A stretch of DNA of 64,000 nucleotides. Source: Amoebophrya sp. A120. Lineage: Eukaryota > Protista > Dinoflagellata. Positions 33,924 to 63,748 of the stretch are shown here, in pieces (within the stretch, counting starts at the first letter, position 1; the number at the start of each line of letters is the position of its first letter). The stretch lies in assembly GCA_905178155.1 (NCBI GenBank), contig CAJINV010000002.1, forward strand, positions 11,874,729 to 11,938,728, read 5' to 3'. A program made the position numbers and the translations under genes. Under the pieces are notes generated by a model. The model was not told where the DNA came from, ran no database searches, and saw only the letters and a program-made list of their open reading frames with translations.

Positions 33924-36120
33924 ATGCGGCGAAAAGGGCATGCAGAAGCATCGAGAAACGGGGCTATGAAAGAAACAGGTCGGCGCCAACGCAGATCATG
34001 GAAACGAGTTCTAACACGGACCGCAGCCGGCGCGGCCACTGCCTTTCTTGGAGCTGCCACTATTCTGCATGGAGGCCTATCCGGGGTTTCCGCTGCCAAC
34101 CCGCAGTGCTTGACCGCCGATGCAATGATCGGGGGCATGCGACACTATCTGGTCGACTGGGACCAGCAGTTGCTGCACGGGGCCAACAAAACTTGGACTT
34201 GCGAAGACTTCGCGCAGTTTCTGTACCGTCATATTCAAAACTTTCATTTACTTGTTCATGGTTCACATTGTGTTTGTCACCACATGCATGACGATAAATC
34301 ATCCTAGAACAAAACACGCAAAGCGTCCTTGTACTTACTTACAAAGAAATAGCGAGAGCCGTGACGACGTCATCCTCAGGCACAGCAACAATCTACACCG
34401 ACCTGCAGGTACAATTCGCGTGACCGCATCCAGCAGGAGCTTTTCTACACCTATTCCAACATGACCACCGTTCCCACGCCGAAGTCCGTTGCGAAGGACG
34501 GCGGGGAAGGCGGCGGCGAACAAGACGAGGTGGTGTCCGTCTCGGACGCAGAACTTCCGGAGGGGTTTGGAGATTTGCCTTGGATTTTGTCGCACGTGAA
34601 CAAGGCGGCGTCGCTGGTGTCGGCCTCGGTCCACGTGAACTCGGGGCTGGGCGTGATCCGGCAGGAGTGCTTCGTGGAGCCCGCGGTGCACCTGCTGTTC
34701 TTTGTCAGCCTGCGCCGGGTGCATCAGCTGATGCTGAACCAGCTCAAGTATTTGTGGTACCTGATGCAAAACACCCCGGAGATGTACCGCGGAGCCGCCA
34801 CGCAGTGGATCATGGAGGCGTCCCAGGTGTTCCGCGGCGATCTGGACACGACGGAAAGCATCTTCGAGGGCTGGAACCCGCCGAACTCCACCATCAGCGA
34901 CGAAAACCCGCTCACGTATGAAAAGCACGAGAAACCAAAGGTAAAATAGGAAACTGCTACGTGCTTCTCGAGATTTATTCCTCGCACTCATTTCGGCCTG
35001 CCTTCGTGCTCTCAGGCAGATCTGGGTCGCGGAAGTCGATACTCGTCCGCGACGGAGCGTGGATCACATACATTCCCTACCTGTTTGTGCTTTTCTGCGT
35101 ACGGTCAAGGATGTTCATCTTCTTGTGTGTGCTACGAGAAATACTTTTCCTATACAGGTTTTCTCTATCGTCGAGCTGCTGCGACGACAAACGTTTAAGG
35201 AGACGGACTTTGACCGGGAGCTCGTGCGGGCCACCATGCGGCACGTGTTCAGCAAGAACGACATCATTCTGGAGCTCGGGGCGGGCACGGGCGACCTGAG
35301 TCGGTGGCTGAACGAGACCGGGTGGGTACAGAGCCACGCTTACGACTACAGCAGCGACATTGAGCTCATCACCTTCAACAACGTGCATCAATTACGGGCC
35401 GACAACTACCCACCGCGGTTAGGAGACGGAGACATCCCCTACGACTGGATTCTCTGCCTCTCCGAACAATGCCCCATGATGCTGGAACCCATCCAGGCGA
35501 AGTTCTCGAACGTAAGCACGTTTATTTTTGAATAAAGCGAAACGGCATCTGGAGAAACGGCATCTGGATCTGATTTCAGAATTCGCTTAGCTTGTCGACA
35601 AATGTTGTGTTTTTTCTCCGTGAGATGGAGCTGAGGAAGACAACTGTTCCTCTTTCCGTCTGCGTTGCTTGTTAGTTAGTTTCGGTTCGGCAGCATCAAA
35701 AGCAATCCTTTCTGGCACGCACGCATGTTTGGACTCATTTTCCTTTGTATGTATGAAACGAAAACAACCTATACCGTTACTCCAGTTGCGCGACTACACG
35801 CACAAGGGTGTGATACTGCAGAAAGACGTCCTGGGGGTCAGCGACATCTCGCCGGCTTTGGTAGACGCGAATAGCGAGGCGTACGTGGATATCCTAGGTG
35901 GAATCACTGCCATCACCTGCGATTTGTCACGCTGCGGACACGACAACGTCTAAATCCAATGAATGCAAGCCAAAGTCTCTGAGATGGGAAGGGAAAGCAT
36001 GCAATTTAGACGTGTTCATCTTGGCATCGCAAATTGAAGGTGATGTTGGTGATTTTGCACAGGATAGCCGAAAAAGGCCTGGCGGAAAGATACGCGGTGT
36101 TGGTGCACGCTGCGGCGTAG
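33924..36120 (+). CDS. Signal-anchored/secretory protein with C-terminal class I SAM-dependent methyltransferase-like domain
   Basis: Phase-consistent GT-AG exons 33924-34222, 34409-34940, 35158-35511, 35786-35880, 36063-36120; hydrophobic N-terminal segment AAGAATAFLGAATILHGGL; motif I ILELGAGTGDLSRWL. Confidence 0.7.
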
Positions 36121-36941: not shown

Positions 36942-38676
36942 ATGGACAACTTGGTGCGGCGGTTCGATTGGTACCGGCGGGTGCCGAAGGACCTCACGGA
37001 AAGCAGTGTGCACGGTGCTGTTGTATCGATTTTAACTATCACTGTGGCACTCTACCTGTTTCTGTCCAACTTGTCTGAGTTTCTGACGGTCCAAACCAGA
37101 TCGGAGATGTTCGTGGACGACTTTCACCAGAATATCGAGGATTCAAGCCGGAACAAGCTCAGGATAAACCTGGACATCAAATTTCCCCGCGTGCCCTGCG
37201 CAGCGCTCGCCCTGGACGCACAGGACGTCATGGGCTCGCACGAGCTGTCCACTGGCGGACTGCTCTTCAAGCTGCAGCTCGGTCGCGACGGAAATACGGT
37301 TCTGAATCGGGAAGAGGTGCACGGAAACCACATGACCGAGTCCAAATTTCACGGCCTCTCTCGCCACAATTGGAACATACTGCATCAACACGACAAAGAT
37401 CACGTACCACATTTACTTACATCATATCTTGCATTGCGTTTCCAAACTTGGCGAGTAGCGTTGGCCCGTATCGACATGACGTTTGTTTTGCTGCATGTAA
37501 AAAAGTTGGATTTCTCAAATCTTCTGACCTATCAGATAAAGGAGGAGCTTCTTGCCCAGGAAGGGTGTCGCCTGCAGGGATCTCTGGAAGTCAATCGCGT
37601 CCCAGGAAATATCCACATATCGACCCACTACCTCGGCGGCTTTCCAACGCTTTCGTATATATTCTGCATTTCCGTGATTTTAATTTCTCCCGTTCTCTTG
37701 AAGCTGTTTGTTTGTAAGTTTTCGTTAGTGCAGACACAGACCTCGTTCTGTTCTTCCTGGTTCATTCTTTACCGTTGTTTTCTCTGAAAACGCACAACAA
37801 AATATCAGCCTCGACGATGACGGCATGTTTGGGCGGGGTCCTAGTTTCGGCTCGTCGTCGAACAAACAGAAGGGCGGTAAGGAAAACGACGTCCGTTGGG
37901 AGGACCTGTCGACGGAGCAAAAGTACCAGAGGCTGCAGAATCTGGACTTGGAACACGAGATCCTACACCTTTCCTTCGGCGACGATCGCGACCTGCAGTG
38001 GGTCGTCGACAATTTTCAGAACGCTGGGATCCTGTCTCCGCTCGACGGAGTGAAGCAGACCTGCGAGCGGAAAAAGTACGACCCGAATTCCTACCACGGC
38101 GGCCTCTTTAACTTGCCCGGACTGGACGGGCCATCCTTGTTCAACAGCGACCAAACCGCGAAACTGCACGACCCGGGAGCGGCCAAGGTCCCCTCTGGAT
38201 CGACGTCCGTGTCGGGAAATAAGAACGGAGAAGGAAGTTCCTCCTCTAGTACGATCGACCTGGTGAACACCGTCGCGCAACCGACAATCTTCGAGTACTA
38301 CTGCAATGTAGTCCCCACCCGCTACGAAAAGCTGGGCGCCAGCAGCAGGAACGGAAATCGGGGAGGAGGTTCTTCTTATGGAGCGGCGAGTGGGAGTGAT
38401 GGGCCGCAAGATGACACAAGGCGGCGTGACGTCTACCAATTCACGTCAAATCAGAACGAGCTGAAAAACACGCACGCGCCCGGGATTTACATCCGTTACG
38501 GCATCGCGCCGGTCGCCGTCAAGTTCGTGGAGCATCGAATCGCGTTCTTTACCTTCTTCGTGCAGACCCTGGCCATCCTGGGAGGCCTCTTCACTGTCGC
38601 TGGACTCGTCGAGTCCGTGTTGCACACAGGGTTGCAGTCGGTGCAAAGAAAGTTTGAACTGGGAAAGTTGACCTGA
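36942..38676 (+). CDS. ER-Golgi intermediate compartment protein (ERGIC3/Erv46 family)
   Basis: RRFDWYRRVPKDL, N-terminal TM, LRINLDIKFPRVPC, EGCRLQGSLEVNRVPGNIHIS, YYCNVVPTRYE, PGIYIRYGIAPVAV, C-terminal TM ILGGLFTVAGLVES and ELGKLT end; exons ~36942-37403, 37536-37654, 37809-38676. Confidence 0.9.
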
Positions 38677-40155: not shown

Positions 40156-41148
40156 ATGGTGGTTCCGATGCCAAGTATCCAGGTGACGCCCGTCCCAACG
40201 GACTACGCATTGAAGAGCAGAAATTGGTTCTGGGCTTTCTCGGCGACTATCTTCGTTTGCAGTAATATAATTTTGCCACTTTTATTCGGCGACGGCGTCG
40301 TGCTCGTGCTGCACGACTCAGGTCTCTTTGGAAGCACGTGCTCGTTCGGTTTTTGTACAGAGTCCTCCTGGTTGAGATCTTCTTCGTGAAATAAGCTGAG
40401 TTCTTTCGAATATGGTAATAAAACAACAAAAAATACAAATTTTTTCAGGTATGGTGCAGATATTCATGTTCCTGAACATTATTCCGGGTTTTATGATGCT
40501 GATCATTTGCGGCGTCGGGTTTTACACGCTCCGCGAGAAGTCCATCGATATGAACTGCCTCATGACCTGGGGGATGATCTGCCTCGTAAATGGCGTTTTC
40601 GACACCGTTTTTCTCATCGACCGAGCAGTGAAGATGGACCGCCCACTGTTCTCCTTCCAAGTGGAGAAGGCTTTTCTGTACAACACCATCCATTTTCTCA
40701 TACTCGCGGGACCAACCGCCGAACTGTGTAGTGCCTACCTGGTCTACAAGGTAAATTACTGAGTTTTACCAACTAGCAGCAACATCAGATGATCGCCACT
40801 GTTTCTCATACTTGAACTTGTTTTTTGGTAGGAATAGGAGAAGTTCTGTATCTCCTGCTTGATCAGGTCCAATCTTTAACACGAGGTTGAGAGGGACTAT
40901 CCTATGCTTCTGTCTGTTGCTACGCACAGGTATACAAGGACGCGACGGACGAGAGCTTCATGGTCGACAACTACCACAGCCGACAGCGAGGAGCCGCCGC
41001 CGGCAACGTCGCAAGCGCGTCCTACGGGGCAGGAGAGACCACCGGACTCACCTCGGGAGCGTCTCAGAGCGGCTCCACATTTACACCCTTCGTCGGCAAG
41101 GGCAACACACTCGGGGGTACCCAGAGCAACGATGAAAATAGTGCCTGA
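40156..41148 (+). CDS. Multi-pass membrane protein with C-terminal SHP-box-like motif (paralog 1)
   Basis: Exons 40156-40261, 40449-40750, 40930-41148 (GT-AG); about 4 hydrophobic helices; FTPFVGKGNTLGG; aligns end to end with paralog 2. Confidence 0.8.
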
Positions 41149-42672
41149 GTTTTGTTGACCTTGATCAAAAACTGACATGATGTGTGCTACTCTGTAATCC
41201 AGCTCGAGATGGACACTCATGCCCTTGTTTTCCATTGTACGCCAGATTTTATGTAGATTTTTTCATGTATTTTCGCCTGTCTACTTTGTAATTCATTTTA
41301 CCTGTATTAAGCCCTTTTTCGATGTATGATTTGTTCAAAATTCACATTGTCGCGATGTTTGTGTATGCTTCCAAAATCCGCCCGTAGAAATATCATAGCG
41401 ATATTGCTTCTCTGTCTCCTTTGTAAAAATTGGCGCGCTTGACTCTACTATCTACTTGACGTCTGCGCCCCCCAGAGACAGCAATAGCGGCCATCGCTGC
41501 ATCCAGCTATTCTTCCCTTATCCTCCGCCTCCGCGCGGCTGCACACGCAACTCAACTGCATGTAGAAAGCCGCGGCGCCTGTGTAACAGCACAATGTCAG
41601 CAATGCGGGAGCTATTCGCGAGGTCAAGAATATCTGGTACGGCGACCACTGCTCTTCTATGATAAATACTCTACTCGTGCCACAAGAAGTAGAAACGGGA
41701 TCTCTGCTTCCCTAGATTGGCAAAGATTGTTTTGTAGAATACAGTCTTCATCAGATACCAAGCACGTTGCATGTGCTGTCAAATTCGAAAGGAAACGAGC
41801 CACCACGGATAAGATGTGTTCAGTATTGGCGTCGACTCAACGTTACTTATTCGTTTCAGATCTTTGGTGAGTGCTGAAAAATCGGATGTCCGTTGTGTGT
41901 CGCTGTGCATTTGTGCATGGATCCGTTGCTTCTGGTGAGCACTGTTCCAGGGTCGTCACAAATCGTTTTCATTTCATCTCGTCTTGCAAGTCTGATCAAC
42001 GGGAACAGCTAGAGCATCATACCAATCAATCGTGTGATCGTGATGGATGAAAACATGGAACTATGGTAATTTCTACTATGTCGATTTTTCGTCTATGCTG
42101 ACGCGATCCTTGAGACTCGTTTCTCTACAAATCGTGGGTATGTCTTCAGTTTCACCAGTGCCGTGGTTTCTGCTGCACAGAAAGTTCGTTGTAGGTTGGA
42201 GTCATACGTTCTCGTTTAGGTTTATGTCGTGACCGTGAGGAAAATGGAGGCCTGCACCCTGGGTTTCGGCCTATCCTTTATTCACCGTTCTTGCCTTCAT
42301 AAAAATGTAGTTTCGTGCTTAGCATGCTGCCTGTCGCAGTTGTTTATGGAAGGCGCCATTTTGTTTCGGATTTTTTTAGCAAAGGCAAAACTAACCCTAA
42401 AAAAATATAAGTTGCCCGCAATATTCATATATACTTAAATCAAGAGCATACTTTATACTTTTTGGTATTTCTCTGCTACGTCGCCGGTTGGGTACGCGGC
42501 ATGAAAAAGATTCGCTCCTGGTGTGACGAAACTCGTGCCCCTCTCTCTCTTCGTAACTACTTGTAAGAAAGTGGGAACTTGATTTGAGTCCTCTCGTTAT
42601 TGTGCCGCGCGTCCAGGAGCGAGACGTAGCGCAGTTTGCCAGCAAACAACCTCCTCCGAGTAATTTTTCAGC

Positions 42673-44520
42673 ATGGTGGTGCCCCTGCCGCCAATCTACA
42701 TCACCCCGGTGCCTTCCGAGTACGCACTAAAATGTCGTCCCTGGTTCACCGTTTTCGCGTTTGTCATGCTGGTCGAATCCATCCAGAAGATGTTTCTGGA
42801 TCTCGAGATTTTTCCGGGTTTCATATCAAAATGAAAAATCCCCCCTCCCCATATCAAAACGGAAATTTGTGATGCTCATTTGTGACCACAAATCAGCTTT
42901 GTATTGCAGAGAGGCACTGCGGCCAGATCCCCAGGCTAGGTAGGGGCGTATGGGTCTAGTAGTTCAGCATGGCAAACGGCCCCCCTTTAGGCCCAACAGC
43001 ATGACAAATCGCTTCCACAATGGGGCGGAAGCTTCTGGCCTTGTCTTCTTGCAAGACAGATGTGATTTGTGACCTCAAATCCGCAACGCAAATTTTTGGA
43101 AACATACCTTTTCAATATGGGGAGGGGGGATTTTTCCTCTCAATATTTCATGGTGGCGATCCTGGCTGGCGTGGGGTTCTACTGCCTGCGCGACAAGTCC
43201 GTCGACATGCACTGTCTCATGACTTGGGGTAAGTATGTACTTGGCAGGGCGAGATGCTTCATTCACATTTTTTGTCAAGCGCAAGCATGACGCTCTGAAG
43301 TTCGCTGTACGACCCCACAGATCTTACATAGAGACCATAATTTCACTCGGTAGAAGCAACTAAAAGGGAACAGGTCGGTGGTGAATCGAATGCATTATGT
43401 TGAAGAAATGGATTTTCAAACTGAATCTTAATGCAGGCATGGTGTGCATGATCAATGGGGTTCTTACGGTGGTGTTGCTGATTGATCGAGTCGTGCGTCC
43501 CATGTCCGAGCCGCTCTTCGTCACGAGCAACGACCAACTGCGGGACAAAGGCGTTTGGGTCCACAACACGAAGTCCCTGATCCGCATCGCAAGTCCCGTA
43601 GCGATGTTGTGCGTCGCCGGGCTCACCTATCGGGTAAGTACCTACTGATCATGCTGATGTTTTGTACACCACGTCAACGGACGATCTTTCTTTATTTATT
43701 GCCTCTAAAGGTGCTAAAGGTGACGAATTTTAATGACATGTTTCTTACTTTATGAGGTTTACAACGAGGTGATGGATACCCTCGACGATATGGCGGCAGA
43801 CCAGCAGGTGCGAAATAATATGAAAGTGAAAAGAGTTGTGGGCGCGCAGCGACAGAAGCGTCTTCATGATGTGTTTATATCAGAAATATGTGAAAAATTC
43901 TTCATCTACATCTTGCTGTACGTCTGAGATCACAGGTTTTATCCGCAGCTGCGGATCAAGGTTTGATCCGCAGCAACATGCTCGCTTGTTTAAGTAAGCA
44001 TCACAGGCGGAAGATCACGTATGCGAAATTCAGCACTGCTATGTGACGAAGACGATGGTCATGTTGCTGCGCATCTACGGTTTTTCTTTTCCAAAACGAT
44101 TGCGATACAAGAGCAGCGAGAGCAATACGTCGCGGGGACAAAATATTCTTCGAATCTCGATCGGCTTTTTGTTGTTATATAATTCTAACGACGCATTTCC
44201 ATTTGCATTGCTTTGATTTTGATGGGCGAAGGGACTTTTCTGAGAACAATTTGAATTCAGTAATGAGAGCTACAAAGAACTACAATTTGCAGATGGTAGC
44301 TAAGTTGTGTCGCTAAATAGACGAGTGCCGGTTCCCACAACAGCAGAAGTAGAGCGAGATTTGTGGAAGTTTTTAAGCGAGCTATACAGCAGAGCAGACG
44401 CAGCGGCTGAACCAACGCCAGAGCGCAGGTGCGCCACAAAATACGAATGCCAGCAATACCGGCACGACGTTCACACCCTTTGGGGGAGTTGGTAATCAAT
44501 TGGGCGGAGAACTGGACTAA
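42673..44520 (+). CDS. Multi-pass membrane protein with C-terminal SHP-box-like motif (paralog 2)
   Basis: Exons 42673-42823, 43151-43228, 43437-43633, 43757-43807, an uncertain middle exon, ~44378-44520; MVVPLPPIYITPVPSEYALK, GVGFYCLRDKSVDMHCLMTWG, FTPFGGVGNQLGG match paralog 1. Confidence 0.78.
42824..43145. mobile_element. Introner-like non-canonical intron 3 (imperfect TIR, 5-bp TSD TTTCA)
   Basis: Left TATCAAAATGAAAAATCCCCCCTCCCCATATCAAAA vs right reverse complement TATTGAGAGGAAAAATCCCCCCTCCCCATATTGAAA; TTTCA at 42819-42823 and 43146-43150; removal gives PGF|MVAILAGVGFY, colinear with paralog 1. Confidence 0.9.
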
Positions 44521-48433: not shown

Positions 48434-48668
48434 TTGCAAACGTGTCAGTCTGGGTTTGGAAGAGTTTCGATGGTGATGCTGCCTCAGATTTCAAAGGGAA
48501 AGAAAAGAGAATCCGTATTGCAGAGCAGTTTTTTCTACACGGAGAGCGCATTTGTCATGCAGGAGAGGCATTAAAAACCCGATGCTAGAGCATGCATTGA
48601 CAGACCAGAGTGCCATGGTGCATGGCAAGCTTTGCAGAGTCCCAGACCCAGACATTTTGCATTTGATG
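48434..48668 (-). mobile_element. Diverged copy of introner 1 family, opposite orientation
   Basis: Colinear blocks shared with the reverse complement of 14342-14607: GTCTGGGTTTGGAAGA, AATCCGTATTGCAGAGCAG, GCATTTGTCATGC, GATGCTAGAGCATGCAT, CCAGACCCAGACATTTTGCATTTGAT. Confidence 0.75.
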
Positions 48669-51765: not shown

Positions 51766-52077
51766 AAAAGTGAGAAATCAGAAAAGTGAGAAATCACTGA
51801 TTTCTCACTTCTGAAAAGTTTCCATTTTGAAAAAGTAAGAAGTCACTGACTTCTCACTTCTGAAAAGTTTTCATTTGGGAAAAGTGAGAAGTCACTGACT
51901 TCTCACTCTGTTTCTCGAACACCTTCGAGAAACGGAGTGAGAAATCAGTGATTTCTCACTTGTGAAAAATTCTCACTCCGGAGTCGGAGTCGCGTTCACT
52001 CTTTCCAGAGTGAGAATTTTTCAAAAGTGAGAAATCAGTGATTTCTCACTACTTTTCTCGAAGGTACTTCGAGCCCC
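51766..52077. repeat. Array of 25-bp palindromes next to the assembly gap
   Basis: AGTGAGAA(A/G)TCA(C/G)TGA(T/C)TTCTCACT at 51785, 51834, 51883, 51936, 52026. Confidence 0.9.
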
Positions 52078-52672
52078 NNNNNNNNNNNNNNNNNNNNNNN
52101 NNNNNNNNNNNNNNNNNNNNNNNNNNNNNNNNNNNNNNNNNNNNNNNNNNNNNNNNNNNNNNNNNNNNNNNNNNNNNNNNNNNNNNNNNNNNNNNNNNNN
52201 NNNNNNNNNNNNNNNNNNNNNNNNNNNNNNNNNNNNNNNNNNNNNNNNNNNNNNNNNNNNNNNNNNNNNNNNNNNNNNNNNNNNNNNNNNNNNNNNNNNN
52301 NNNNNNNNNNNNNNNNNNNNNNNNNNNNNNNNNNNNNNNNNNNNNNNNNNNNNNNNNNNNNNNNNNNNNNNNNNNNNNNNNNNNNNNNNNNNNNNNNNNN
52401 NNNNNNNNNNNNNNNNNNNNNNNNNNNNNNNNNNNNNNNNNNNNNNNNNNNNNNNNNNNNNNNNNNNNNNNNNNNNNNNNNNNNNNNNNNNNNNNNNNNN
52501 NNNNNNNNNNNNNNNNNNNNNNNNNNNNNNNNNNNNNNNNNNNNNNNNNNNNNNNNNNNNNNNNNNNNNNNNNNNNNNNNNNNNNNNNNNNNNNNNNNNN
52601 NNNNNNNNNNNNNNNNNNNNNNNNNNNNNNNNNNNNNNNNNNNNNNNNNNNNNNNNNNNNNNNNNNNNNNNN
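52078..52672. other. Assembly gap
   Basis: Run of N. Confidence 1.
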
Positions 52673-55600
52673 AGATTTGTTTTGTGCCGCCGATCTTCGT
52701 GCTGCTGCAGATGTTTGCTAAGCTTCAAAAGAACTACACCAGCGCGCCAAACCGATCGACTTGGCATGAATTGCGTCCCCCGAGGGCGTTCGGAGAAGTT
52801 TTCCGGCGAAAAGGGGGGGGCTTTTGCGAGTCATGTATCTTTCCAATGTAGCTCCTCGGAGCATAGTCTTCTCGCCCATTCCAGCCCAGCTCTTCGGAGC
52901 CTAGATTTTAGTTTCTCTGGTCTGCAAAAGGGTCTAGCTCTCTCTGTTTCAGCTGCAAACTTCTGACAAAGGCAAATCTGTTTTACGGCCGACGTGGTGG
53001 CTAGGATTGCCTGACTGCTGCGTTGAGCCCAGCCTGCGTGACGGCGTGCAGTCTATAAATTCGGTTTACTTAGCGCCCCTGTTGCAGCAGGAGATAACAC
53101 TGAGAGTATACATCGACCGGCGGTAGTTAGACGGGGATGACTAGAATAGGCCCGAAGGGCTTAGCTTATCACATCCCCCGCACTGCTGTTGCATCAGCAG
53201 GAGCGGCGACATGCGTGACGTTCACGGGGCCCACTGAGGTGGCTAGAAAAAATTTGCATTGCGGCCCGCGGGTCGCTTAACTGCCATGGCCGCCACAGCT
53301 GCGTGATCGTGCAACTGCGTGGCCGTGTAGTACATGCCGCGTAGCGCTGGCGCCCGCCTCCCTGTAACTTTAGTGGTAGCGCACAAGACCGCTGCGCGGC
53401 TCGGCGGCATTAACCGGCCCTGAGTTCCTGCGTGTATGCACCTCGGCCACAGGAACCAGAGGTGGTAGGTTTGTTTTTACTAAAAAGAAAAACTAGTGCT
53501 CAAAAACAAAAGAAAGCAAAGCTACACTCTTGAAAAAAGTCAACGGAGATTCAGCTCCCAGTGCTGTGCATCGCATGCCGCCCCCAGGGTGGTGTGTGTG
53601 TACACGCCCGCGGCGCTACTAGATGGATCCAAACTTTATTTTCAACAAAAGGGCCCAAGGACAGACGTCAATCAGGCCAAGGTGAGATGCGTGAAGAAGT
53701 AATAGCTTTGCATTGTTAGAAAAGAAGCTAGTATGTAGGTGATTGATAACTTAGACAGGGTTTAGGGTTCGACGTGTGCCCCCGTCTGGTGCGTGAAGTT
53801 AGTACGTTGACCGGTATAAGACTCTCGCCGAAAATTGGATCGAATCGATACACCCGTCGTCCGATTCGATCCAAGAAGCTGGGCAAAAGTTGAAACAGAA
53901 ACGAGAAAAAGCAGGAGCCCGCGCTTCAGATAGATCCCAGGCTCTGGCTGCCCTTATGGGCCCACTTCGTTCCGCAACGCCGGGAATTGGATCGAATCGA
54001 TACCCCCGGCGTCCGATTCGATCCAAAAATCTGGCCAAAAGTTGAAACAGAAACGAGAAAAAGCAGGAGCCGGCGCCGCAGAGAGATCCCAGGCTCTGAC
54101 TGCCCTTATGGGCCCACTTCCACAACGCCGAAAATTGGATCGAATCGATACCCGCGTCGTCCGATTCGATCCAAAATAAAATCTGGGCAAAAGTTGAAAC
54201 ATAAACAAGAAAAAGCAGGAGCCGGCGCTGCAGATGGATTGGCTCCAGGCTCTGGCTGCCGTTATGGGCCCACTTCGTTCCACAACGCCGGAAATTGGAT
54301 CGAATCGATACCCCCGTCGTCCGATTCGATCCGAAAATCTGGGCAAAAGTTGAAACAGAAACGAGAAAAAGCAGGAGCCCGCGCTTCAGATAGATTCCAG
54401 GCTCTGGCTGCCCTTATGGGCCCAGTTCCACAACGCCGGAAATTGGATCGAATCGATACCCCCGTCGTCCGATTCGATCCGAAAATCTGGGCAAAAGTTG
54501 AAACAGAAACGAGAAAAAGCAGGAGCCCGCGCTTCAGATAGATTCCAGGCTCTGGCTGCCCTTATGGGCCCACTTCCGCAACGCCGGAAATTGGATCGAA
54601 TCGATACCCCCGGCGTCCGATTCGATCCAAAAATCTGGGCAAAAGTTGAAACAGAAACGCGAAAAAGCAGGAGCCGGCGCTGCAGATAGATTCCAGGCTC
54701 TGGCTGCCGTTATGGGCCCACTTCCACAACGCCGCAAATTGGATCGAATCGATACCCCCGTCGTCCGATTCGATCCAAAAATCTGGGCAAAAGTTGAAAC
54801 AGAAACGCGAAAAAGCAGGAGCCGGCGCTGCAGATAGATTCCAGGCTCTGGCTGCCGTTATGGGCCCACTTCCACAACGCCGAAAATTGGATCGAATCGA
54901 TACCCCCGTCGTCCGATTCGATCCAAAAATCTGGGCAAAAGTTGAAACATAAACAAGAAAAAGCAGGAGCCGGCGCTTCAGATAGATTCCAGGCTCTGAC
55001 TGCCGTTATGGGCCCACTTCCACAACGCCGGAAATTGGATCGAATCGATACCCCCGGCGTCCGATTCGATCCGAAAATCTGGGCAAAAGTTGAAACAGAA
55101 ACGAGAAAAAGCAGGAGCCGGCGCTTCAGATAGATTCCAGGCTCTGGCTGCCGTTATGGGCCCACTTCCACAACGCCGGAAATTGGATCGAATCGATACC
55201 CCCGTCGTCCGATTCGATCCGAAAATCTGGGCAAAAGTTGAAACAGAAACGAGAAAAAGCAGGAGCCGGCGCTTCAGATAGATTCCAGGCTCTGGCTGCC
55301 GTTATGGGCCCACTTCCACAACGCCGGAAATTGGATCGAATCGATACCCCCGTCGTCCGATTCGATCCGAAAATCTGGGCAAAAGTTGAAACAGAAACGA
55401 GAAAAAGCAGGAGCCCGCGCTTCAGATAGATTCCAGGCTCTGGCTGCCCTTATGGGCCCACTTCCACAACGCCGGAAATTGGATCGAATCGATACCCCCG
55501 GCGTCCGATTCGATCCAAAAATCTGGGCAAAAGTTGAAACAGAAACGCGAAAAAGCAGGAGCCGGCGCTGCAGATAGATTCCAGGCTCTGGCTGCCGTTA

Positions 55601-58496
55601 TGGGCCCACTTCCACAACGCCGGAAATTGGATCGAATCGATACCCCCGTCGTCCGATTCGATCCGAAAATCTGGGCAAAAGTTGAAACAGAAACGAGAAA
55701 AAGCAGGAGCCCGCGCTTCAGATAGATTCCAGGCTCTGGCTGCCCTTATGGGCCCACTTCCGCAACGCCGGAAATTGGATCGAATCGATACCCCCGGCGT
55801 CCGATTCGATCCAAAAATCTGGGCAAAAGTTGAAACAGAAACGCGAAAAAGCAGGAGCCGGCGCTGCAGATAGATTCCAGGCTCTGGCTGCCGTTATGGG
55901 CCCACTTCCACAACGCCGGAAATTGGATCGAATCGATACCCCCGGCGTCCGATTCGATCCAAAAATCTGGGCAAAAGTTGAAACAGAAACGCGAAAAAGC
56001 AGGAGCCGGCGCTGCAGATAGATTCCAGGCTCTGGCTGCCGTTATGGGCCCACTTCCACAACGCCGCAAATTGGATCGAATCGATACCCCCGTCGTCCGA
56101 TTCGATCCAAAAATCTGGGCAAAAGTTGAAACAGAAACGAGAAAAAGCAGGAGCCGGCGCTTCAGATAGATTCCAGGCTCTGGCTGCCGTTATGGGCCCA
56201 CTTCCACAACGCCGGAAATTGGATCGAATCGATACCCCCGTCGTCCGATTCGATCCGAAAATCTGGGCAAAAGTTGAAACAGAAACGAGAAAAAGCAGGA
56301 GCCGGCGCTTCAGATAGATTCCAGGCTCTGGCTGCCGTTATGGGCCCACTTCCACAACGCCGGAAATTGGATCGAATCGATACCCCCGTCGTCCGATTCG
56401 ATCCGAAAATCTGGGCAAAAGTTGAAACAGAAACGAGAAAAAGCAGGAGCCCGCGCTTCAGATAGATTCCAGGCTCTGGCTGCCCTTATGGGCCCACTTC
56501 CACAACGCCGGAAATTGGATCGAATCGATACCCCCGGCGTCCGATTCGATCCAAAAATCTGGGCAAAAGTTGAAACAGAAACGCGAAAAAGCAGGAGCCG
56601 GCGCTGCAGATAGATTCCAGGCTCTGGCTGCCGTTATGGGCCCACTTCCACAACGCCGGAAATTGGATCGAATCGATACCCCCGTCGTCCGATTCGATCC
56701 GAAAATCTGGGCAAAAGTTGAAACAGAAACGAGAAAAAGCAGGAGCCCGCGCTTCAGATAGATTCCAGGCTCTGGCTGCCCTTATGGGCCCACTTCCGCA
56801 ACGCCGGAAATTGGATCGAATCGATACCCCCGGCGTCCGATTCGATCCAAAAATCTGGGCAAAAGTTGAAACAGAAACGCGAAAAAGCAGGAGCCGGCGC
56901 TGCAGATAGATTCCAGGCTCTGACTGCCGTTATGGGCCCACTTCCACAACGCCGAAAATTGGATCGAATCGATACCCCCGTCGTCCGATTCGATCCAAAA
57001 ATCTGGGCCAAAGTTGAAACATAAACAAGAAAAAGCAGGGGCCGGCGCTTCAGATAGATTCCAGGCCCTGACTGCCGTTATGGGCCCACTTTCTCCCACA
57101 ACGCCGAAAATTGAAGCGAATCGATGCCCCCGGCGTCCGATTCGATCCAAAAATCTGGGCAAAAGTTGAAACAGAAACGCGAAAAAGCAGGAGCCGGCGC
57201 TGCAGATAGATTCCAGGCTCTGACTGCCGTTATGGGCCCACTTCCACAACGCCGAAAATTGGATCGAATCGATACCCCCGTCGTCCGATTCGATCCAAAA
57301 ATCTGGGCCAAAGTTGAAACATAAACAAGAAAAAGCAGGGGCCGGCGCTTCAGATAGATTCCAGGCCCTGACTGCCGTTATGGGCCCACTTTCTCCCACA
57401 ACGCCGAAAATTGAAGCGAATCGATGCCCCCGGCGTCCGATTCGATCCAAAAATCTGGGCAAAAGTTGAAACAGAAACGCGAAAAAGCAGGAGCCGGCGC
57501 TGCAGATAGATTCCAGGCTCTGACTGCCGTTATGGGCCCACTTCCACAACGCCGAAAATTGGATCGAATCGATACCCCCGTCGTCCGATTCGATCCAAAA
57601 ATCTGGGCCAAAGTTGAAACATAAACAAGAAAAAGCAGGGGCCGGCGCTTCAGATAGATTCCAGGCCCTGACTGCCGTTATGGGCCCACTTTCTCCCACA
57701 ACGCCGAAAATTGAAGCGAATCGATGCCCCCGTCGTCCGATTCGATCCAAAAATCTGGGCAAAAGTTGAAACAGAAACGCGAAAAAGCAGGAGCCGGCGC
57801 TGCAGATAGATTCCAGGCTCTGACTGCCGTTATGGGCCCACTTCCACAACGCCGAAAATTGGATCGAATCGATACCCCCGTCGTCCGATTCGATCCAAAA
57901 ATCTGGGCCAAAGTTGAAACATAAACAAGAAAAAGCAGGGGCCGGCGCTTCAGATAGATTCCAGGCCCTGACTGCCGTTATGGGCCCACTTTCTCCCACA
58001 ACGCCGAAAATTGAAGCGAATCGATGCCCCCGTCGTCCGATTCGATCCAAAAATCTGGGCAAAAGTTGAAACAGAAACGCGAAAAAGCAGGAGCCGGCGC
58101 TGCAGATAGATTCCAGGCTCTGGCTGCCGTTATGGGCCCACTTCGCAACGCCGGAAATTGAATCGAATCGATACCCCCGGCGTCCCATTCGATCCAAAAA
58201 TCTGGGCAAAAGTTGAAACACAAACAAGAAAAAGCAGGAGCCGGCGCTGCAGATAGTTTCCAGGCTCTGACTGCCGTTATGGGCCCACTTCCACAACGCC
58301 GAAAATTGGATCGAATCGATACCCCCGTCGTCCGATTCGCTCCAAAAATCCGGGCAAAAGTTGGAACACAAACAAGAAAAAGCAGGAGCCCGCGCTTCAG
58401 ATAGATTCCAGGCTCTGGCTGCCCTTATGGGCCCACTTCCGCAACGCCGGAAATTGGATCGAATCGATACCCCCGGCGTCCGATTCGATCCAGAAA

Positions 58497-59841
58497 TCAG
58501 GTGGAGGACAGTGGGGCCAGTTCGTGGGCTAAAAACTGGCTAAATTTTTCGGGATTTCCCCGAGGCCCCAAGGCCCGGGCACCTCTCTGGCTTGGCCCGT
58601 GTGCCGCCGCCCAGGTTCGTGTCTTATCGCTCCCCCCTGTCTGGTTCGTCTCCGCCTTGTCGGTCCCATGGGGTTTGTTCGTGTCTGTGGGCCACTGGTA
58701 CAATGCGGCCGCGGTGCCTGCTCCTACCTTGTGTTTTGTGTTTGGCCGCGCGCCAAGTTTTAAAATTTAAAAATTGGCCCGGTTTTCCATAGAAATGTGG
58801 AGACGGCCAATTTCGACATGTCTTCCGACGCTGGTTTTCCGGATATTTTGCACCACGCAAAATATCCGGCAGCGTGGTCATGTGTGTTGCAGGGGAAGGC
58901 ATTATCTCAGGCACAACAGGCTCGAGATGGTGTCTGTCACTATCTCGGCCAAGCCCTGGGGGTTGCCTCTCCTTATAATTGTTCTGCATCGCGCTCCGCG
59001 CTGTGTTGTGTTTGTCTTTCTGATGACGTCGACCTTCGTCGCAGGATTCTTGTTCTAAATGTGGCTTTGGAAATATAGAAGTCCAGAGGACTTCCATGTT
59101 TCCAAAGCCGCGGGATTCACACTTTTTCATCTTCGAAGTCGGCGGCTAAATCTGCAAGTTTGTGACTTCCTTCCCGAAATCACTGTACTCGCGAATTTAG
59201 CCGTTCGAGGCGAAGATGAAAGGAGTGTGAATCCCGCAAAGTTTAGAACAAGAATTAGAAGGGCAATTTAGCGCATGACTTAGCCATGCGATTTAGAACA
59301 AAAAATAGAATAGGATTTAGAATAGGATTTAGCCGGCCGATTTAGCACACAATTTAGCGGGCCAAATTAGAAAGGATTTTCCGCGCTTTTTGCTAAACTG
59401 CCAATTTAGCAAAAAGCGCGGAAGGCTAAATCGTTTGGGGTGGTGGAAATGTGGTGGGGAAATATAATAACCATTCGCGCATGGGATGGTGGCCCACTGA
59501 TTTCCGGGGGCCAAACACATTTCCGCCGGCGCCGGCTTCCGTTTGGGTCTGTCCTTCTTGGGTTCAAGGGCTTCCGCCTTCGGGCATTTCGTTTCCATGT
59601 CTATCCCCCATGCGCCATGGGGTGTCGTCTCGTTCTGTGCGCGCTCCGTCCGGGCCGCCGCAAAATAGCCGTCGCAAACTCCGCTGGGGTTTTGTTTTCT
59701 TTTGCCCACGCCGCGCGGGCTTACTCTTTTCCTTCGGCGGCAACGCCACCACGGTCGCCTTTGTTTGCCCGGACTTTTTAAAAATCCCGAAAAAATTAGC
59801 CAAAATTTAGCGGGCGAAGTCGCCCCACGCCCTCCATCTGA
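58497..59841. mobile_element. Non-autonomous TIR element A inserted in the satellite (TCA...TGA, 6-bp TSD)
   Basis: Imperfect ~60-bp TIR TCAG(G/A)TGGAGG..GTGGGGC..TTCG..GCTAAA..TGGCTAA.TTTTTCGGGATTT; flanks CAGAAA (58491-58496) / CAAAAA (59842-59847); removal restores the satellite unit. Confidence 0.8.
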
Positions 59842-62444
59842 CAAAAATCTGGGCAAAAGTTGAAACAGAAACGCGAAAAAGCAGGAGCCGGCGCTGCAGA
59901 TAGATTCCAGGCTCTGACTGCCGTTATGGGCCCACTTCCACAACGCCGAAAATTGGATCGAATCGATACCCCCGTCGTCCGATTCGATCCAAAAATCTGG
60001 GCAAAAGTTGAAACACAAACAAGAAAAAGCAGGGGCCGGCGCTTCAGATAGATTCCAGGCTCTGACTGCCGTTATGGGCCCACTTCCATCCCCAACGCCG
60101 AAAAAAAATTGGATCGAATCGATACCCCCGTCGTCCGATTCGATCCGAAAATCTGGGCAAAAGCTGAAACAGAAACGAGAAAAAGCAGGAGCCCGCGCTT
60201 CAGATAGATTCCAGGCTCTGGCTGCCCTTATGGGCCCACTTCCGCAACGCCGGAAATTGGATCGAATCGATACCCCCGGCGTCCGATTCGATCCAAAAAT
60301 CTGGGCAAAAGCTGAAACAGAAACGAGAAAAAGCAGGAGCCCGCGCTTCAGATAGATTCCAGGCTCTGGCTGCCCTTATGGGCCCACTTCCGCAACGCCG
60401 GAAATTGGATCGAATCGATATCCCCGGCGTCCGATTCGATCCAAAAATCTGGGCAAAAGTTGAAACAGAAACGCGAAAAAGCAGGAGCCGGCGCCGCAGA
60501 TAGATTCCAGGCTCTGACTGCTGTTATGGGCCCACTTCCACAACGCCGAAAATTGGATCGAGTGAATCGATACCCCCGGCGTCCGATTCGATCCAAAAAT
60601 CTGGGCAAAAGTTGAAACACAAACAAGAAAAAGCAGGAGCCGGCGCTTCAGATAGAGTCCAGGCTCTGACTGCCGTTATGGGCCCACTTCCACAACCAAC
60701 GCCGAAAATTGGATCGAATCGATACCCCCGGCGTCCGATTCGATCCAAAAATCTGGGCAAAAGTTGAAACACAAACAAGAAAAAGCAGGAGCCGGCGCTT
60801 CAGATAGAGTCCAGGCTCTGACTGCCGTTATGGGCCCACTTCCACAACCAACGCCGAAAATTGGATCGAATCGATACCCCCGGCGTCCGATTCGATCCGA
60901 AAATCTGGGCAAAAGTTGAAACATAAACAAGAAAAAGCAGGAGCCGGCGCTTCAGATAGATTCCAAACTCTGACTGCCGTTATGGGCCCACTTCCACAAC
61001 GCCGGAAATTGGATCGAGTCGCTACCCCCGTCGTCCGATTCGGTCCAAAAATCTGGGCAAAAGTTGAAACACAAACAAGAAAAAGCAGGAGCCGGCGCTG
61101 CAGATAGATTCCAGGCTCTGACTGCCGTTATGGGCCCACTTCCACAACGCCGAAAATTGGATCGAATCGATACCCCCGGCGTCCGATTCGCTCCAAAAAT
61201 CTGGGCAAAAGTTGGAACACAAACAAGAAAAAGCAGGAGCCCGCGCTTCAGATAGCTTCCAGGCTCTGGCTGCCGTTATGGGCCCCCTTCCACAACGCCG
61301 GAAATTGGGCCGAGTCTATCGATACCCCCGTCGTCCGATTCGATCCGAAAATCTGGGCAGAAGTTGAAACAGAAACGAGAAAAAGCAGGAGCCCGCGCTT
61401 CAGATAGATTCCAGGCTCTGGCTGCCGTTATGGGCCCACTTCCACAACGCCGGAAATTGGATCGAATCGATACCCCCGGCGTCCGATTCGATCCAAAAAT
61501 CTGGGCAAAAGTTGAAACAGAAACGCGAAAAAGCAGGAGCCGGCGCTGCAGATAGATTCCAGGCTCTGACTGCCGTTATGGGCCCACTTCCGCAACGCCG
61601 GGAATTGGATCGAATCGATACCCCCGTCGTCCGATTCGATCCAAAAATCTGGGCAGGAGTTGAAACATAAACAAGAAAAAGCATGAGCCGGCACTTCAGA
61701 TAGCTTCCAGGCTCTGACTGCCGTTATGGGCCCACTTCCACAACGCCGGAAATTGAAGCGAATCGATACCCCCGCCGTCCGATTCGATCCGAAAATCTGG
61801 GCAAAAGTTGAAACAGAAACGCGAAAAAGCAGGAGCCCGCGCCTCAGATAGATTCCAGGCTCTGGCTGCCCTTATGGGCCCACTTCCGCAACGCCGGAAA
61901 CTGGATCGAATCGATATCCCCGGTGTCCGATTCGATCCAAAAATCTGGGCAAAAGTTGAAACAGAAACGCGAAAAAGCAGGAGCCGGCGCTGCAGATAGA
62001 TTCCAGGCTCTGACTGCCGTTATGGGCCCTGGATCGAATCGATATCCCCGGCGTCCGATTCGATCCAAAAATCTGGGCAAAAGTTGAAACAGAAACGCGA
62101 AAAAGCAGGAGCCGGCGCTGCAGATAGATTCCAGGCTCTGACTGCCGTTATGGGCCCTGGATCGAATCGATATCCCCGGCGTCCGATTCGATCCAAAAAT
62201 CTGGGCAAAAGTTGAAACAGAAACGCGAAAAAGCAGGAGCCGGCGCCGCAGATAGATTCCAGGCTCTGAGCTGACTGCCGTTATGGGCCCACTTCCACAG
62301 CGCCGAAAATTAGATCGAATCGATACCCCCGTTGTCCGATTCGATCCAAAAATCTGGGCAAAAGTTGAAACATAAACAAGAAAAAGCAGGAGCCGGCGCT
62401 TCAGATAGCTTCCAGGCTCTGACTGCCGTTATGGGCCCACTTCC

Positions 62445-63748
62445 TCATGCGGAGACACCCCGGGCGGATTTCTGTTCTAAAATTCCGCTAATTTTTCCGG
62501 TTTTTCAAAAATTCCGGGCGCCCTTTCCACCAGGCCGGGGAGGCCGCCGCCGGGGGCGCCCGCTTGCTGTACTCCCCCACCGCGTGCCCAGCGTCGCCAT
62601 GGTGTTTCGGTCAATGGGCTTAGCGGTGGGGCGCCCGTTTTTGTCTCTTGGGATTCGGCGTGGCGGGTTTTAAAATTTAAAAATTTGGGCAGGTTTCTTG
62701 GGTAATTGCCGCCGCGCAATTTCAAGGCGAGCGCAGGGGGGAATAGGTGGTGGCGGTTGGGGCAAGTGCGATTTTGTTTATGTTTGTGGTAGGAGGGTCG
62801 ACGTGGGGTTGTGAATTCCCTGGAGATGCGAAGAGGCGCAGCTTGTGCGTGCCTCTTCGCATCTTCGCATTTTGTTCTACAGCTCGAGACAATATCATAT
62901 TCGTATGTCGCGGAGCTGGAGATGATGTTCGTGAGAGTGAACATCATCTCCAGCAGCGCCGAAAACAAATCTCGAGTTGTCAGGCATTGGATGTTCGCGT
63001 GAAGCGAAACCGGAAGTCTTCCGGTTTCGCTTCCGCTTTTGGTGTCCCGAAATCTTCTACTCCGACTTCTAAAATCGCCAAATGGCGATTTTATGTGGGA
63101 TTTTGCGCTACCTGCAATTTTAGAGAAGTATTATAACTTCCGAAATTGCAGTGCGCGCAACGGAATTAAAGGATTTTTAGAGACGAAATTAAAGGGCGGA
63201 GTTAAAGGATTTTTTAAAGGCCTTTTTAGAGGCCATTTTAGAGGCGGCTTTTCGAGACGGGTTTTAGAGGCCCGTTTTAGAGGCCCACTTTCGAGGCCGG
63301 CTTTAGAGACCGGCTTTAGAGGCCGGTTTTAGAGGCCCGCTTTAGAGGCCGCTTTTAGAGGCCAAAATTAGAGGCGCACTTTAGAGGCCGAAATTAGAAG
63401 TCCACTTCGTAAGCGGCTTCTGCAGCGGGCTTGTAGTTTCGGCCTGTCTTTCACATGGGATCGTCGCGACTAAGTAGTCATGGCAGCGATCCGGTGTGCA
63501 GGCTTTCTGGGTGATCTCTTGTTCTTTCTTCTCTTCTTCGCGATCGTCTTCCGGTCCAGGGGTGTTCTTTCCTCATCGCGGAATTTCGTCTGTGCGCCGC
63601 GTCGCCTATTTCCTTTTGTGACTTCGGCGCCGCCCTCTTCATTCCCATGGGCGTGCCACCAGGGTTTTTGGGTCCTTGCTTTTTTTGTAAAACCGGAAAA
63701 ATTAGAAGAATATTAGAGGCCGAGGCCGCCCGGGCGTTTTCCGCATGA
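62445..63748. mobile_element. Non-autonomous TIR element B inserted in the satellite (TCA...TGA, 6-bp TSD)
   Basis: Imperfect ~65-bp TIR TCATGCGGA.A...CCCGGGCGG...TCTAA.ATTC..CTAATTTTTCCGGTTTT; perfect ACTTCC at 62439-62444 and 63749-63754; removal restores GGGCCCACTTCCACAACG. Confidence 0.85.

What the first reader, a model, noticed from the sequence alone, without database searches (positions are those of the whole stretch)
42819..43150. TIR intron with an empty site in the adjacent paralog: intron gain visible within the window
Seen: a 322-bp unit with imperfect ~39-bp TIR (TATC...AATA) and perfect TTTCA duplication in paralog 2. Paralog 1 reads straight through the same position (IIPGFMMLIICGVGFY vs IFPGF|MVAILAGVGFY), which fixes the spliced product. 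There is no usable AG near the 3' boundary. Several TIR mismatches (C/A, A/C type at the DNA level) show the termini have drifted while the C-run/G-run stem core is intact. Inference: gained by insertion after the tandem duplication and still removable despite TIR decay.
Basis: partly seen in the sequence, partly recalled or inferred. Interest (0 to 1): 0.85.

Follow-up and report, generated by a model that had tools for sequence, protein, structure and literature searches.

The report
Young Amoebophrya introner in old paralog
A small hairpin-ended mobile element sits in a gene of the marine parasite Amoebophrya A120 and is missing cleanly from transcript assemblies although it lacks normal splice signals; it is one ordinary, likely recent copy of an already published class, and its mismatched ends are shared with its closest relatives rather than decayed.

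Summary
Real, but a published class. The window is Amoebophrya sp. A120. The 322-nt unit (42824-43145) is one of the introner elements that Farhat et al. 2021 described for this strain, and the public gene model already uses this splice. Likely-RNA contigs of two runs (one sample) skip exactly 327 nt; a DNA run keeps the unit. It belongs to a high-copy family: 63 of 77 copies from another assembly have a perfect 5-nt target duplication. Gain after duplication is supported, but by the element's youth and by orthologs, not by the empty paralog site: the paralogs are 45% identical, older than the strain splits, and differ in two canonical introns too. 'TIR decay' is wrong: the four closest copies carry the same mismatched ends, and the outer 7 nt match in only 2 of 77 copies without covariation. 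Two truly decayed elements in the same gene are still skipped and fit a cut 1 nt before and 4 nt after the element, a rule this scan had already noted on other DNA of this genome.

The parts
42824..43145 (+). Introner element proper, 322 nt, TAT-N7-AAAAA ends, no long ORF in the gene's frame (stop at codon 54 if retained)
   Evidence: family boundaries fixed by loose ends at 42823/42824 and 43145/43146 in DNA contigs
42819..42823 (+). Left copy of the 5-nt target-site duplication TTTCA
   Evidence: 5 nt is the family's duplication length, 63 of 77 copies
43146..43150 (+). Right copy of the target-site duplication
42824..42862 (+). Left inverted-repeat arm; positions 4-10 differ from the right arm at 4 of 7 places, a family trait
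43107..43145 (+). Right inverted-repeat arm
42823..43149 (+). Likely intron as cut (327 nt, 1 nt before and 4 nt after the element, AT..TC); any of seven registers from 42819-43145 to 42825-43151 gives the same mRNA
   Evidence: joint 42818>43146 in X3 and X5; register inferred from the two neighbouring introns
42673..44520 (+). Paralog 2 coding region, 213 aa (P0003, GSA120T00016766), five introns: this one, two GT-AG, two older non-canonical
43229..43436 (+). Canonical GT-AG intron of paralog 2, absent from paralog 1
43634..43756 (+). Canonical GT-AG intron of paralog 2, same position as paralog 1's second intron
43818..44099 (+). Older non-canonical intron, 282 nt; arms match at 15 of 30, duplication decayed; allowed registers 2+3 or 1+4
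   Evidence: 26-27 nt on the short side of the joint
44125..44390 (+). Older non-canonical intron, 266 nt; arms match at 11 of 30, duplication decayed; allowed registers 1+4 or 0+5
   Evidence: 26 nt on the short side; terminus placement less sure
40156..41149 (+). Paralog 1 coding region, 208 aa (P0001, GSA120T00016768), two GT-AG introns
40489..40493 (+). Homologous unoccupied site in paralog 1 (TTTTA, single copy)

Best explanation
This is one copy of the multi-copy, inverted-repeat introner class of Amoebophrya A120, flanked by a 5-nt duplication and missing from transcript contigs by exactly its length plus five bases; it likely inserted recently into one of two old paralogs and is likely cut out of the pre-mRNA by the cell's loosened spliceosome at a fixed offset from the element's ends. 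Shown: the element in DNA, its absence from RNA contigs, the restored frame, the family, the 5-nt duplication, the age of the paralogs. Inferred: insertion by a DNA-transposase in trans (MITE-like; no transposase identified here); the cut 1 nt before the left TAT and 4 nt after the right ATA, which keeps four bases of the left duplication and one of the right; recognition of the TAT-N7-A-run end motif and the inner stem, not of perfect pairing at the tips, which is why it would work in either orientation and after the duplication decays. The confidence below is for identity, removal and recent gain; the splicing machine itself I put at about 0.55 spliceosome.
For: Junction 42818>43146 (327 nt) in contigs of X3 and X5, which also skip the GT-AG introns. 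DNA run X1: one 27.9-kb contig runs from the left flank into the element and a 7.8-kb contig out of it, flank depth 25-28 against 40,000-200,000 inside, loose ends of 48+152 and 86+38 contigs at the termini with unrelated flanks. 111 near-full copies at 67-97% in 138 loci of another assembly; 63 of 77 with perfect 5-nt duplication, none of 4 or 7-9 nt. Only 3 of 322 positions private to this copy against its five nearest, the same three that nearly all DNA depth contradicts, whereas third codon positions of the paralogs are 42% identical. Tree: paralog 1 with an A25 protein (98/97), paralog 2 with AT5 and A25 proteins (97/96); sisterhood of the two A120 genes rejected, p-AU 7.6e-9. The AT5 ortholog (68%) has a genome gene model identical to its transcript and reads through the site, and AT5 introns were reported 99.98% canonical. 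End motif, duplication and lengths match Farhat et al. for A120; all nine predominant A120 splice pairs in their Table S4 have T as second base, as a cut one base before TAT gives. The two older introns of this gene together allow only 1+4. Copies in both orientations restore long frames only on removing element + 5 (3 of 4 Pfam-oriented copies).
Against: RNA support is contigs from one sample, typed as RNA by guess, and probably the same data behind the public gene model; raw-read runs X10 and X11 and metatranscriptome X9 laid nothing. This junction cannot fix the register itself (seven equal cuts). No genomic DNA of any ortholog was seen, so absence in AT5 and A25 is indirect, and an Augustus model would not reveal a canonical intron at the same place. 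Nine joint rows of the DNA lay were not shown. The codon-model orientation calls were noisy (control 2 right, 1 wrong, 2 no call of 5). Nothing here tests which enzyme cuts; U1 snRNA was reported undetected in this genome.
Confidence: 0.9

Rival explanations
1. Same element and gain, but removal is by a non-spliceosomal, structure-guided cut-and-join route (hairpin brings the ends together; an endonuclease and ligase act), as proposed for euglenid non-conventional introns (recalled).
For: No conserved terminal dinucleotides (last two bases spread over all 16 pairs); strong stem; U1 undetected; both orientations occur.
Against: The outer 10 nt are unpaired in this copy's predicted fold and paired in only about half of 77 copies in this orientation; arms do not covary; an intron with 11 of 30 arm matches is still skipped; an invariant T at intron position 2 resembles a 5' splice site; nearly all spliceosomal proteins are present.
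Confidence: 0.35
2. Ancestral intron lost from paralog 1 (and from orthologs) rather than gained in paralog 2.
For: The paralogs do differ in two canonical introns, so losses or gains have happened in this pair; no ortholog DNA was seen.
Against: Perfect target duplication, 96.6% identity to copies elsewhere and 3 private changes cannot survive the time that saturated the paralogs' third positions; A120 families are strain-specific.
Confidence: 0.03
3. The unit is a MITE that disables a pseudogene, or is excised from DNA in part of the cells, so the joined form is not splicing.
For: Paralog 2 contigs have lower depth than paralog 1 (61.5 v 276; 4.3 v 27.4; a poor measure); RNA typing of X3/X5 is a guess.
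Against: The same contigs skip GT-AG introns; the DNA contigs run unbroken across those introns and into the element from both sides; the protein is full length with a 68% ortholog; transposase excision would not be expected to restore exactly one target copy every time (own knowledge).
Confidence: 0.04
4. One reading: the TIRs were perfect at insertion and have since decayed.
For: 4 of 7 outer positions mismatch.
Against: All 4 copies above 94% and 5 of 8 above 90% have the identical first 10 nt at both ends; no variant listed in 42824-42866 or 43115-43145 in the complete RNA table; left and right ends have distinct consensus across 77 copies.
Confidence: 0.03

Closest known systems
Introner elements (IEs) among the non-canonical introns of Amoebophrya sp. 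A120 (Farhat et al. 2021, PMC7789003; abstract, passages, section 10, supplement legends and part 3 of 5 seen; figures not seen)
   Same: Same strain; TAT + 7 loose nt + A-run inverted repeat; short direct repeat across the boundaries; hairpin; no GT-AG; multi-copy family; no transposase inside; gain after strain split.
   Different: Nothing that removes it from the class. Added here: duplication is 5 nt in 63 of 77 copies, left and right ends differ heritably in the 7 loose positions without covariation, both orientations occur. The paper leaves splice positions variable or unknown; its figures S19-S25, which I could not see, may already show part of this.
TIR DNA-transposon introners of Amoebophrya A120 and other eukaryotes (Gozashti et al. 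2025, PMC12130899, and 2022, PMC9860276; passages seen)
   Same: TIR + TSD non-autonomous elements creating introns; splice boundaries partly taken from the TSD; ortholog with empty site used as evidence of gain (Aureococcus example).
   Different: Most described families use or recruit GT/GC/GA..AG; this one has no fixed dinucleotide but the second base.
MITEs (non-autonomous TIR DNA transposons; general knowledge and discussion in PMC7789003)
   Same: Short, TIRs, fixed-length TSD, high copy number, unrelated flanks.
   Different: Removed from RNA without a trace; no cognate transposase identified here or, by the paper, in A120.

Membership tests
Amoebophrya A120 introner element | Host is Amoebophrya sp. 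A120 | tested here: met
   Window exons 100% identical to A120 proteins GSA120T00016768 and GSA120T00016766
Amoebophrya A120 introner element | Intron supported by RNA, without GT-AG | tested here: met
   Joint in contigs of X3 and X5; none of seven registers is GT-AG. Contigs of one sample, not raw reads.
Amoebophrya A120 introner element | Terminal inverted repeat starting TAT, 7 loose nt, then at least AAA | tested here: met
   Both ends fit
Amoebophrya A120 introner element | Short direct repeat overlapping the exon/intron boundaries | tested here: met
   5-nt duplication, 6-nt junction repeat
Amoebophrya A120 introner element | Repeated family | tested here: met
   Which of the paper's 1,954 families it is could not be told.
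Amoebophrya A120 introner element | Strain-specific (absent from other strains at the orthologous site) | tested here: inconclusive
   Only ortholog proteins were seen; no ortholog DNA. The strain of the second assembly is not known (one search found nothing).
MITE / non-autonomous TIR DNA transposon | Fixed-length TSD with unrelated flanks | tested here: met
   63 of 77 perfect 5 nt; no strong sequence preference
MITE / non-autonomous TIR DNA transposon | Cognate autonomous element with the same ends | not testable with these tools
   No whole genome is held for this window
Spliceosomal intron | GT/GC/AT..AG/AC termini | tested here: not met
   Seven registers: TT-TA, TT-AT, TC-TT, CA-TT, AT-TC, TA-CA, AT-AT
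Spliceosomal intron | Lariat intermediate and snRNP dependence | not testable with these tools
   Needs lariat reads or inhibition experiments
Known structured RNA or self-splicing intron family | Rfam match | tested here: not met
   0 matches at E 0.1 in 42700-44500

The most novel reading that the evidence does not exclude
Amoebophrya A120 removes these introns with a ruler that reads a short, orientation-symmetric DNA-transposon end motif (TAY ... RTA with an A-run about ten bases in), cutting 1 nt before and 4 nt after it regardless of tip pairing, target duplication or GT-AG: a second splice code co-opted from transposon ends. This one gene then holds an age series (one fresh, two decayed elements, two canonical introns) that makes a compact reporter for it.
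Probability: 0.4. Interest if true: 0.65.

Novelty: already known. Interest (0 to 1): 0.22.

Why it matters
As a single locus it matters little: it is one of about 30,000 published elements of this kind in this strain, and the splice is in the public annotation. Its use is as a tidy test case. The open question is how an organism without detectable U1 snRNA removes tens of thousands of introns lacking GT-AG. The family data narrow that: the tips need not pair, the two ends differ heritably, either orientation is tolerated, and decayed neighbours are still removed at one register. It also warns against reading TIR mismatches as decay, or an empty paralog site as proof of gain, without the family and the tree.

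Tried and rejected
No whole genome is held, so copies and a cognate transposase could not be sought in this assembly. No second copy of this family in the window (best other hit 48 nt at 73%, E 0.06). TIR core in viral contigs: 0. Codon-model orientation calls (28 same, 20 opposite of 70 before retraining) were too noisy to use for a ratio; only 4 of 136 flank pieces had Pfam hits. A protein search with one flank of the second assembly found nothing at E 1e-10, so its strain stays unknown. The idea that mismatches are selected to give G-U pairs on one strand (125 v 56 such mismatches, 90 transversions in 66 copies) is not supported, since both orientations occur in genes; it follows from the left/right consensus difference. 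Canonical alternatives near the boundaries were rejected. Rfam gave nothing. Pfam does not name the host protein; the structure search of the ESM Atlas gave no usable family. The first large tree did not finish its careful search and was replaced by a 17-row tree chosen from 98 proteins held. Earlier notes near this place or with the words orientation/asymmetric/paralog: none.

Full report
Observation. Such units are not chance: 4 in the first 53.8 kb against 0-1 in each of 10 shuffles. The junction repeat is really 6 nt, since the base after the right copy equals the element's first T, so seven cuts give one mRNA and none is GT-AG. If retained, the unit stops the frame at codon 54.

Organism and genes. 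Exons of both genes are 100% identical to Amoebophrya sp. A120 proteins, GSA120T00016768 (paralog 1, 208 aa) and GSA120T00016766 (paralog 2, 213 aa). The public model of paralog 2 already reads IFPGFMVAILAG, that is, it uses this splice.

Removal from RNA. Of four runs laid first, X3 and X5 (one sample, typed as RNA by guess) have a contig with the joint 42818>43146, 327 nt skipped, 82 nt on the short side; the same runs skip the GT-AG introns of both genes and two more non-canonical introns of paralog 2. X10 and X11, raw reads under the same species label, laid nothing and are no test. In the DNA run X1 a 27.9-kb contig runs without difference from the left flank to 42850 and a 7.8-kb contig from 43120 across all later introns; the joint is not among the 15 rows shown (9 not shown); X9 laid nothing. 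So the unit is in the DNA and absent from transcripts. This is probably not independent of the public model.

Family. In X1 depth is 25-28 in the flanks and 40,000-200,000 inside (not a copy number, but clearly very many), with 48+152 contigs leaving at the left end and 86+38 at the right end into unrelated sequence. They hold 111 hits of at least 250 nt among 426; 91 had both termini matched, and 77 were distinct with usable flanks (20 dropped for unmatched termini, 14 for short or repeated flanks). 63 of 77 have a perfect 5-nt duplication; perfect repeats of 4 or 7-9 nt occur in none. Selection by the 21-mer makes the inner stem look conserved partly by construction; it does not touch the outer 10 nt or the duplication.

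The mismatched ends are inherited. All four copies above 94% identity, and 5 of 8 above 90%, have the same first 10 nt at both ends as the focal copy. Against its five nearest flanked copies the focal one has 3 private changes, at 42877, 43018 and 43038, none in the arms; the DNA lay shows the same three, and the complete variant table of the RNA lay has no row in 42824-42866 or 43115-43145. Across 77 copies positions 4-10 match fully in 2; the mean match is 3.75 of 7 against 3.95 with partners shuffled, so the arms do not covary, while left ends resemble left ends (4.9) and right ends right ends (4.7).

Gain or loss. The paralogs are 45% identical and 42% at third codon positions. Paralog 1 groups with an A25 protein (98/97), paralog 2 with an AT5 and an A25 protein (97/96), and holding the two A120 genes together is rejected (p-AU 7.6e-9; 17 of 98 proteins). 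The duplication is older than the strain splits. Each paralog also has a canonical intron that the other lacks, and they share one, so an empty site by itself says nothing on direction. Direction comes from age: a perfect duplication and about 1% private change cannot be as old as saturated third positions. The AT5 ortholog (68%) reads through the site in a protein that is both a genome model (g17935.t1) and a transcript product; AT5 models were made with Augustus (passages) and its introns reported 99.98% canonical. That excludes a non-canonical intron there only indirectly; I saw no ortholog DNA.

How it is likely cut. Earlier notes of this scan on other pieces of this genome proposed a fixed cut 1 nt before and 4 nt after the element; I took the idea from them. 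The focal junction cannot test it. The two older non-canonical introns of the same gene can: their duplications have decayed, arms match at 15 and 11 of 30, and the joints allow 2+3 or 1+4 for one and 1+4 or 0+5 for the other, leaving 1+4 (short sides of 26-27 nt, one terminus less sure). All nine predominant A120 splice pairs in Table S4 of Farhat et al. have T second, as this cut predicts. These two, not the focal element, show removal despite decay. Of 136 flank pieces 4 had Pfam hits, orienting two copies like the focal one and two oppositely; in 3 of the 4 a long frame continues only when element + 5 (mod 3) is removed, and in L003 the SNF2 profile continues from 225 to 228 (no RNA for these). 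A rough codon model preferred that class in 42 of 70 copies but its control was poor. In the focal orientation the predicted stem starts about 10 nt inside the ends, and the tips pair in about half of 77 copies against about 90% in the other orientation. I infer that the ends are read as a motif plus inner stem rather than as a perfect hairpin. A loosened spliceosome is my first choice (about 0.55): position 2 is always T and almost all spliceosomal proteins are present, though U1 snRNA was not detected. A non-spliceosomal route remains open (about 0.35).

Comparison and novelty. Every feature that Farhat et al. 2021 give for A120 introner elements is met. Gozashti et al. 2022 and 2025 place such elements among TIR-transposon introners and use empty orthologous sites as evidence of gain (passages). 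Three searches gave 7, 12 and 4 listings; in the passages I read I found no statement of the end asymmetry or of a single register, but I saw no figures, only part 3 of 5 and legends of the supplement, and not Roy et al. 2023, so I do not claim they are unpublished. Verdict: real, already known as a class and as a splice; gain after an old duplication; decay reading refuted; interest low.

Noticed in passing
window 40156-41149 and 42673-44520: The host proteins belong to an unnamed family of small membrane proteins (93 representatives at E 0.001) with a C-terminal F-x-G-x-G-x-x-L motif in 53 of 68 full-length members, like the p97/Cdc48-binding SHP box (name recalled). ESM Atlas gives AGTRAP on 14% of one cluster as a lead only. 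A120 has at least four paralogs.
   Followed up: partly
window 41150-42672: Public gene numbers skip one between the two paralogs (16768, 16766), but no convincing ORF lies there; only a 251-nt low-depth RNA contig at 41995-42245.
   Followed up: partly
P0002 and P0015: The apparent A25 orthologs of the two adjacent A120 genes lie on scaffolds of different length with distant gene numbers, so the pair seems not adjacent in A25; P0015 has a long branch.
   Followed up: no
window 14342-14607, 14685-14963, 35890-36066, about 48530-48660: Other introner-like units of different families; the first two have near-perfect arms (30 and 29 of 30) and 5-nt duplications, 77 nt apart.
   Followed up: partly
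window 3862-5173: 1.3-kb element with 49-nt, 98% inverted repeats, apparently flanked by TTA, which would fit a PIF/Harbinger-type element (family rule recalled). Similar-sized inverted pairs at 58511-59828 and 62445-63748.
   Followed up: no
window 53848-63700: Long tandem array of about 148-nt units with internal palindromes, 95-100% alike in its core.
   Followed up: no
window 51785-52672: AT-rich cluster of short inverted repeats next to a 595-nt assembly gap.
   Followed up: no
L003 and L004: One SNF2 helicase exon is bracketed by two copies of this family in opposite orientations, one 94.8% identical to the focal element.
   Followed up: partly
window 37729-38673: Upstream neighbour is an ERGIC/Erv46-type vesicle protein (Pfam PF07970, E 4e-19).
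   Followed up: no
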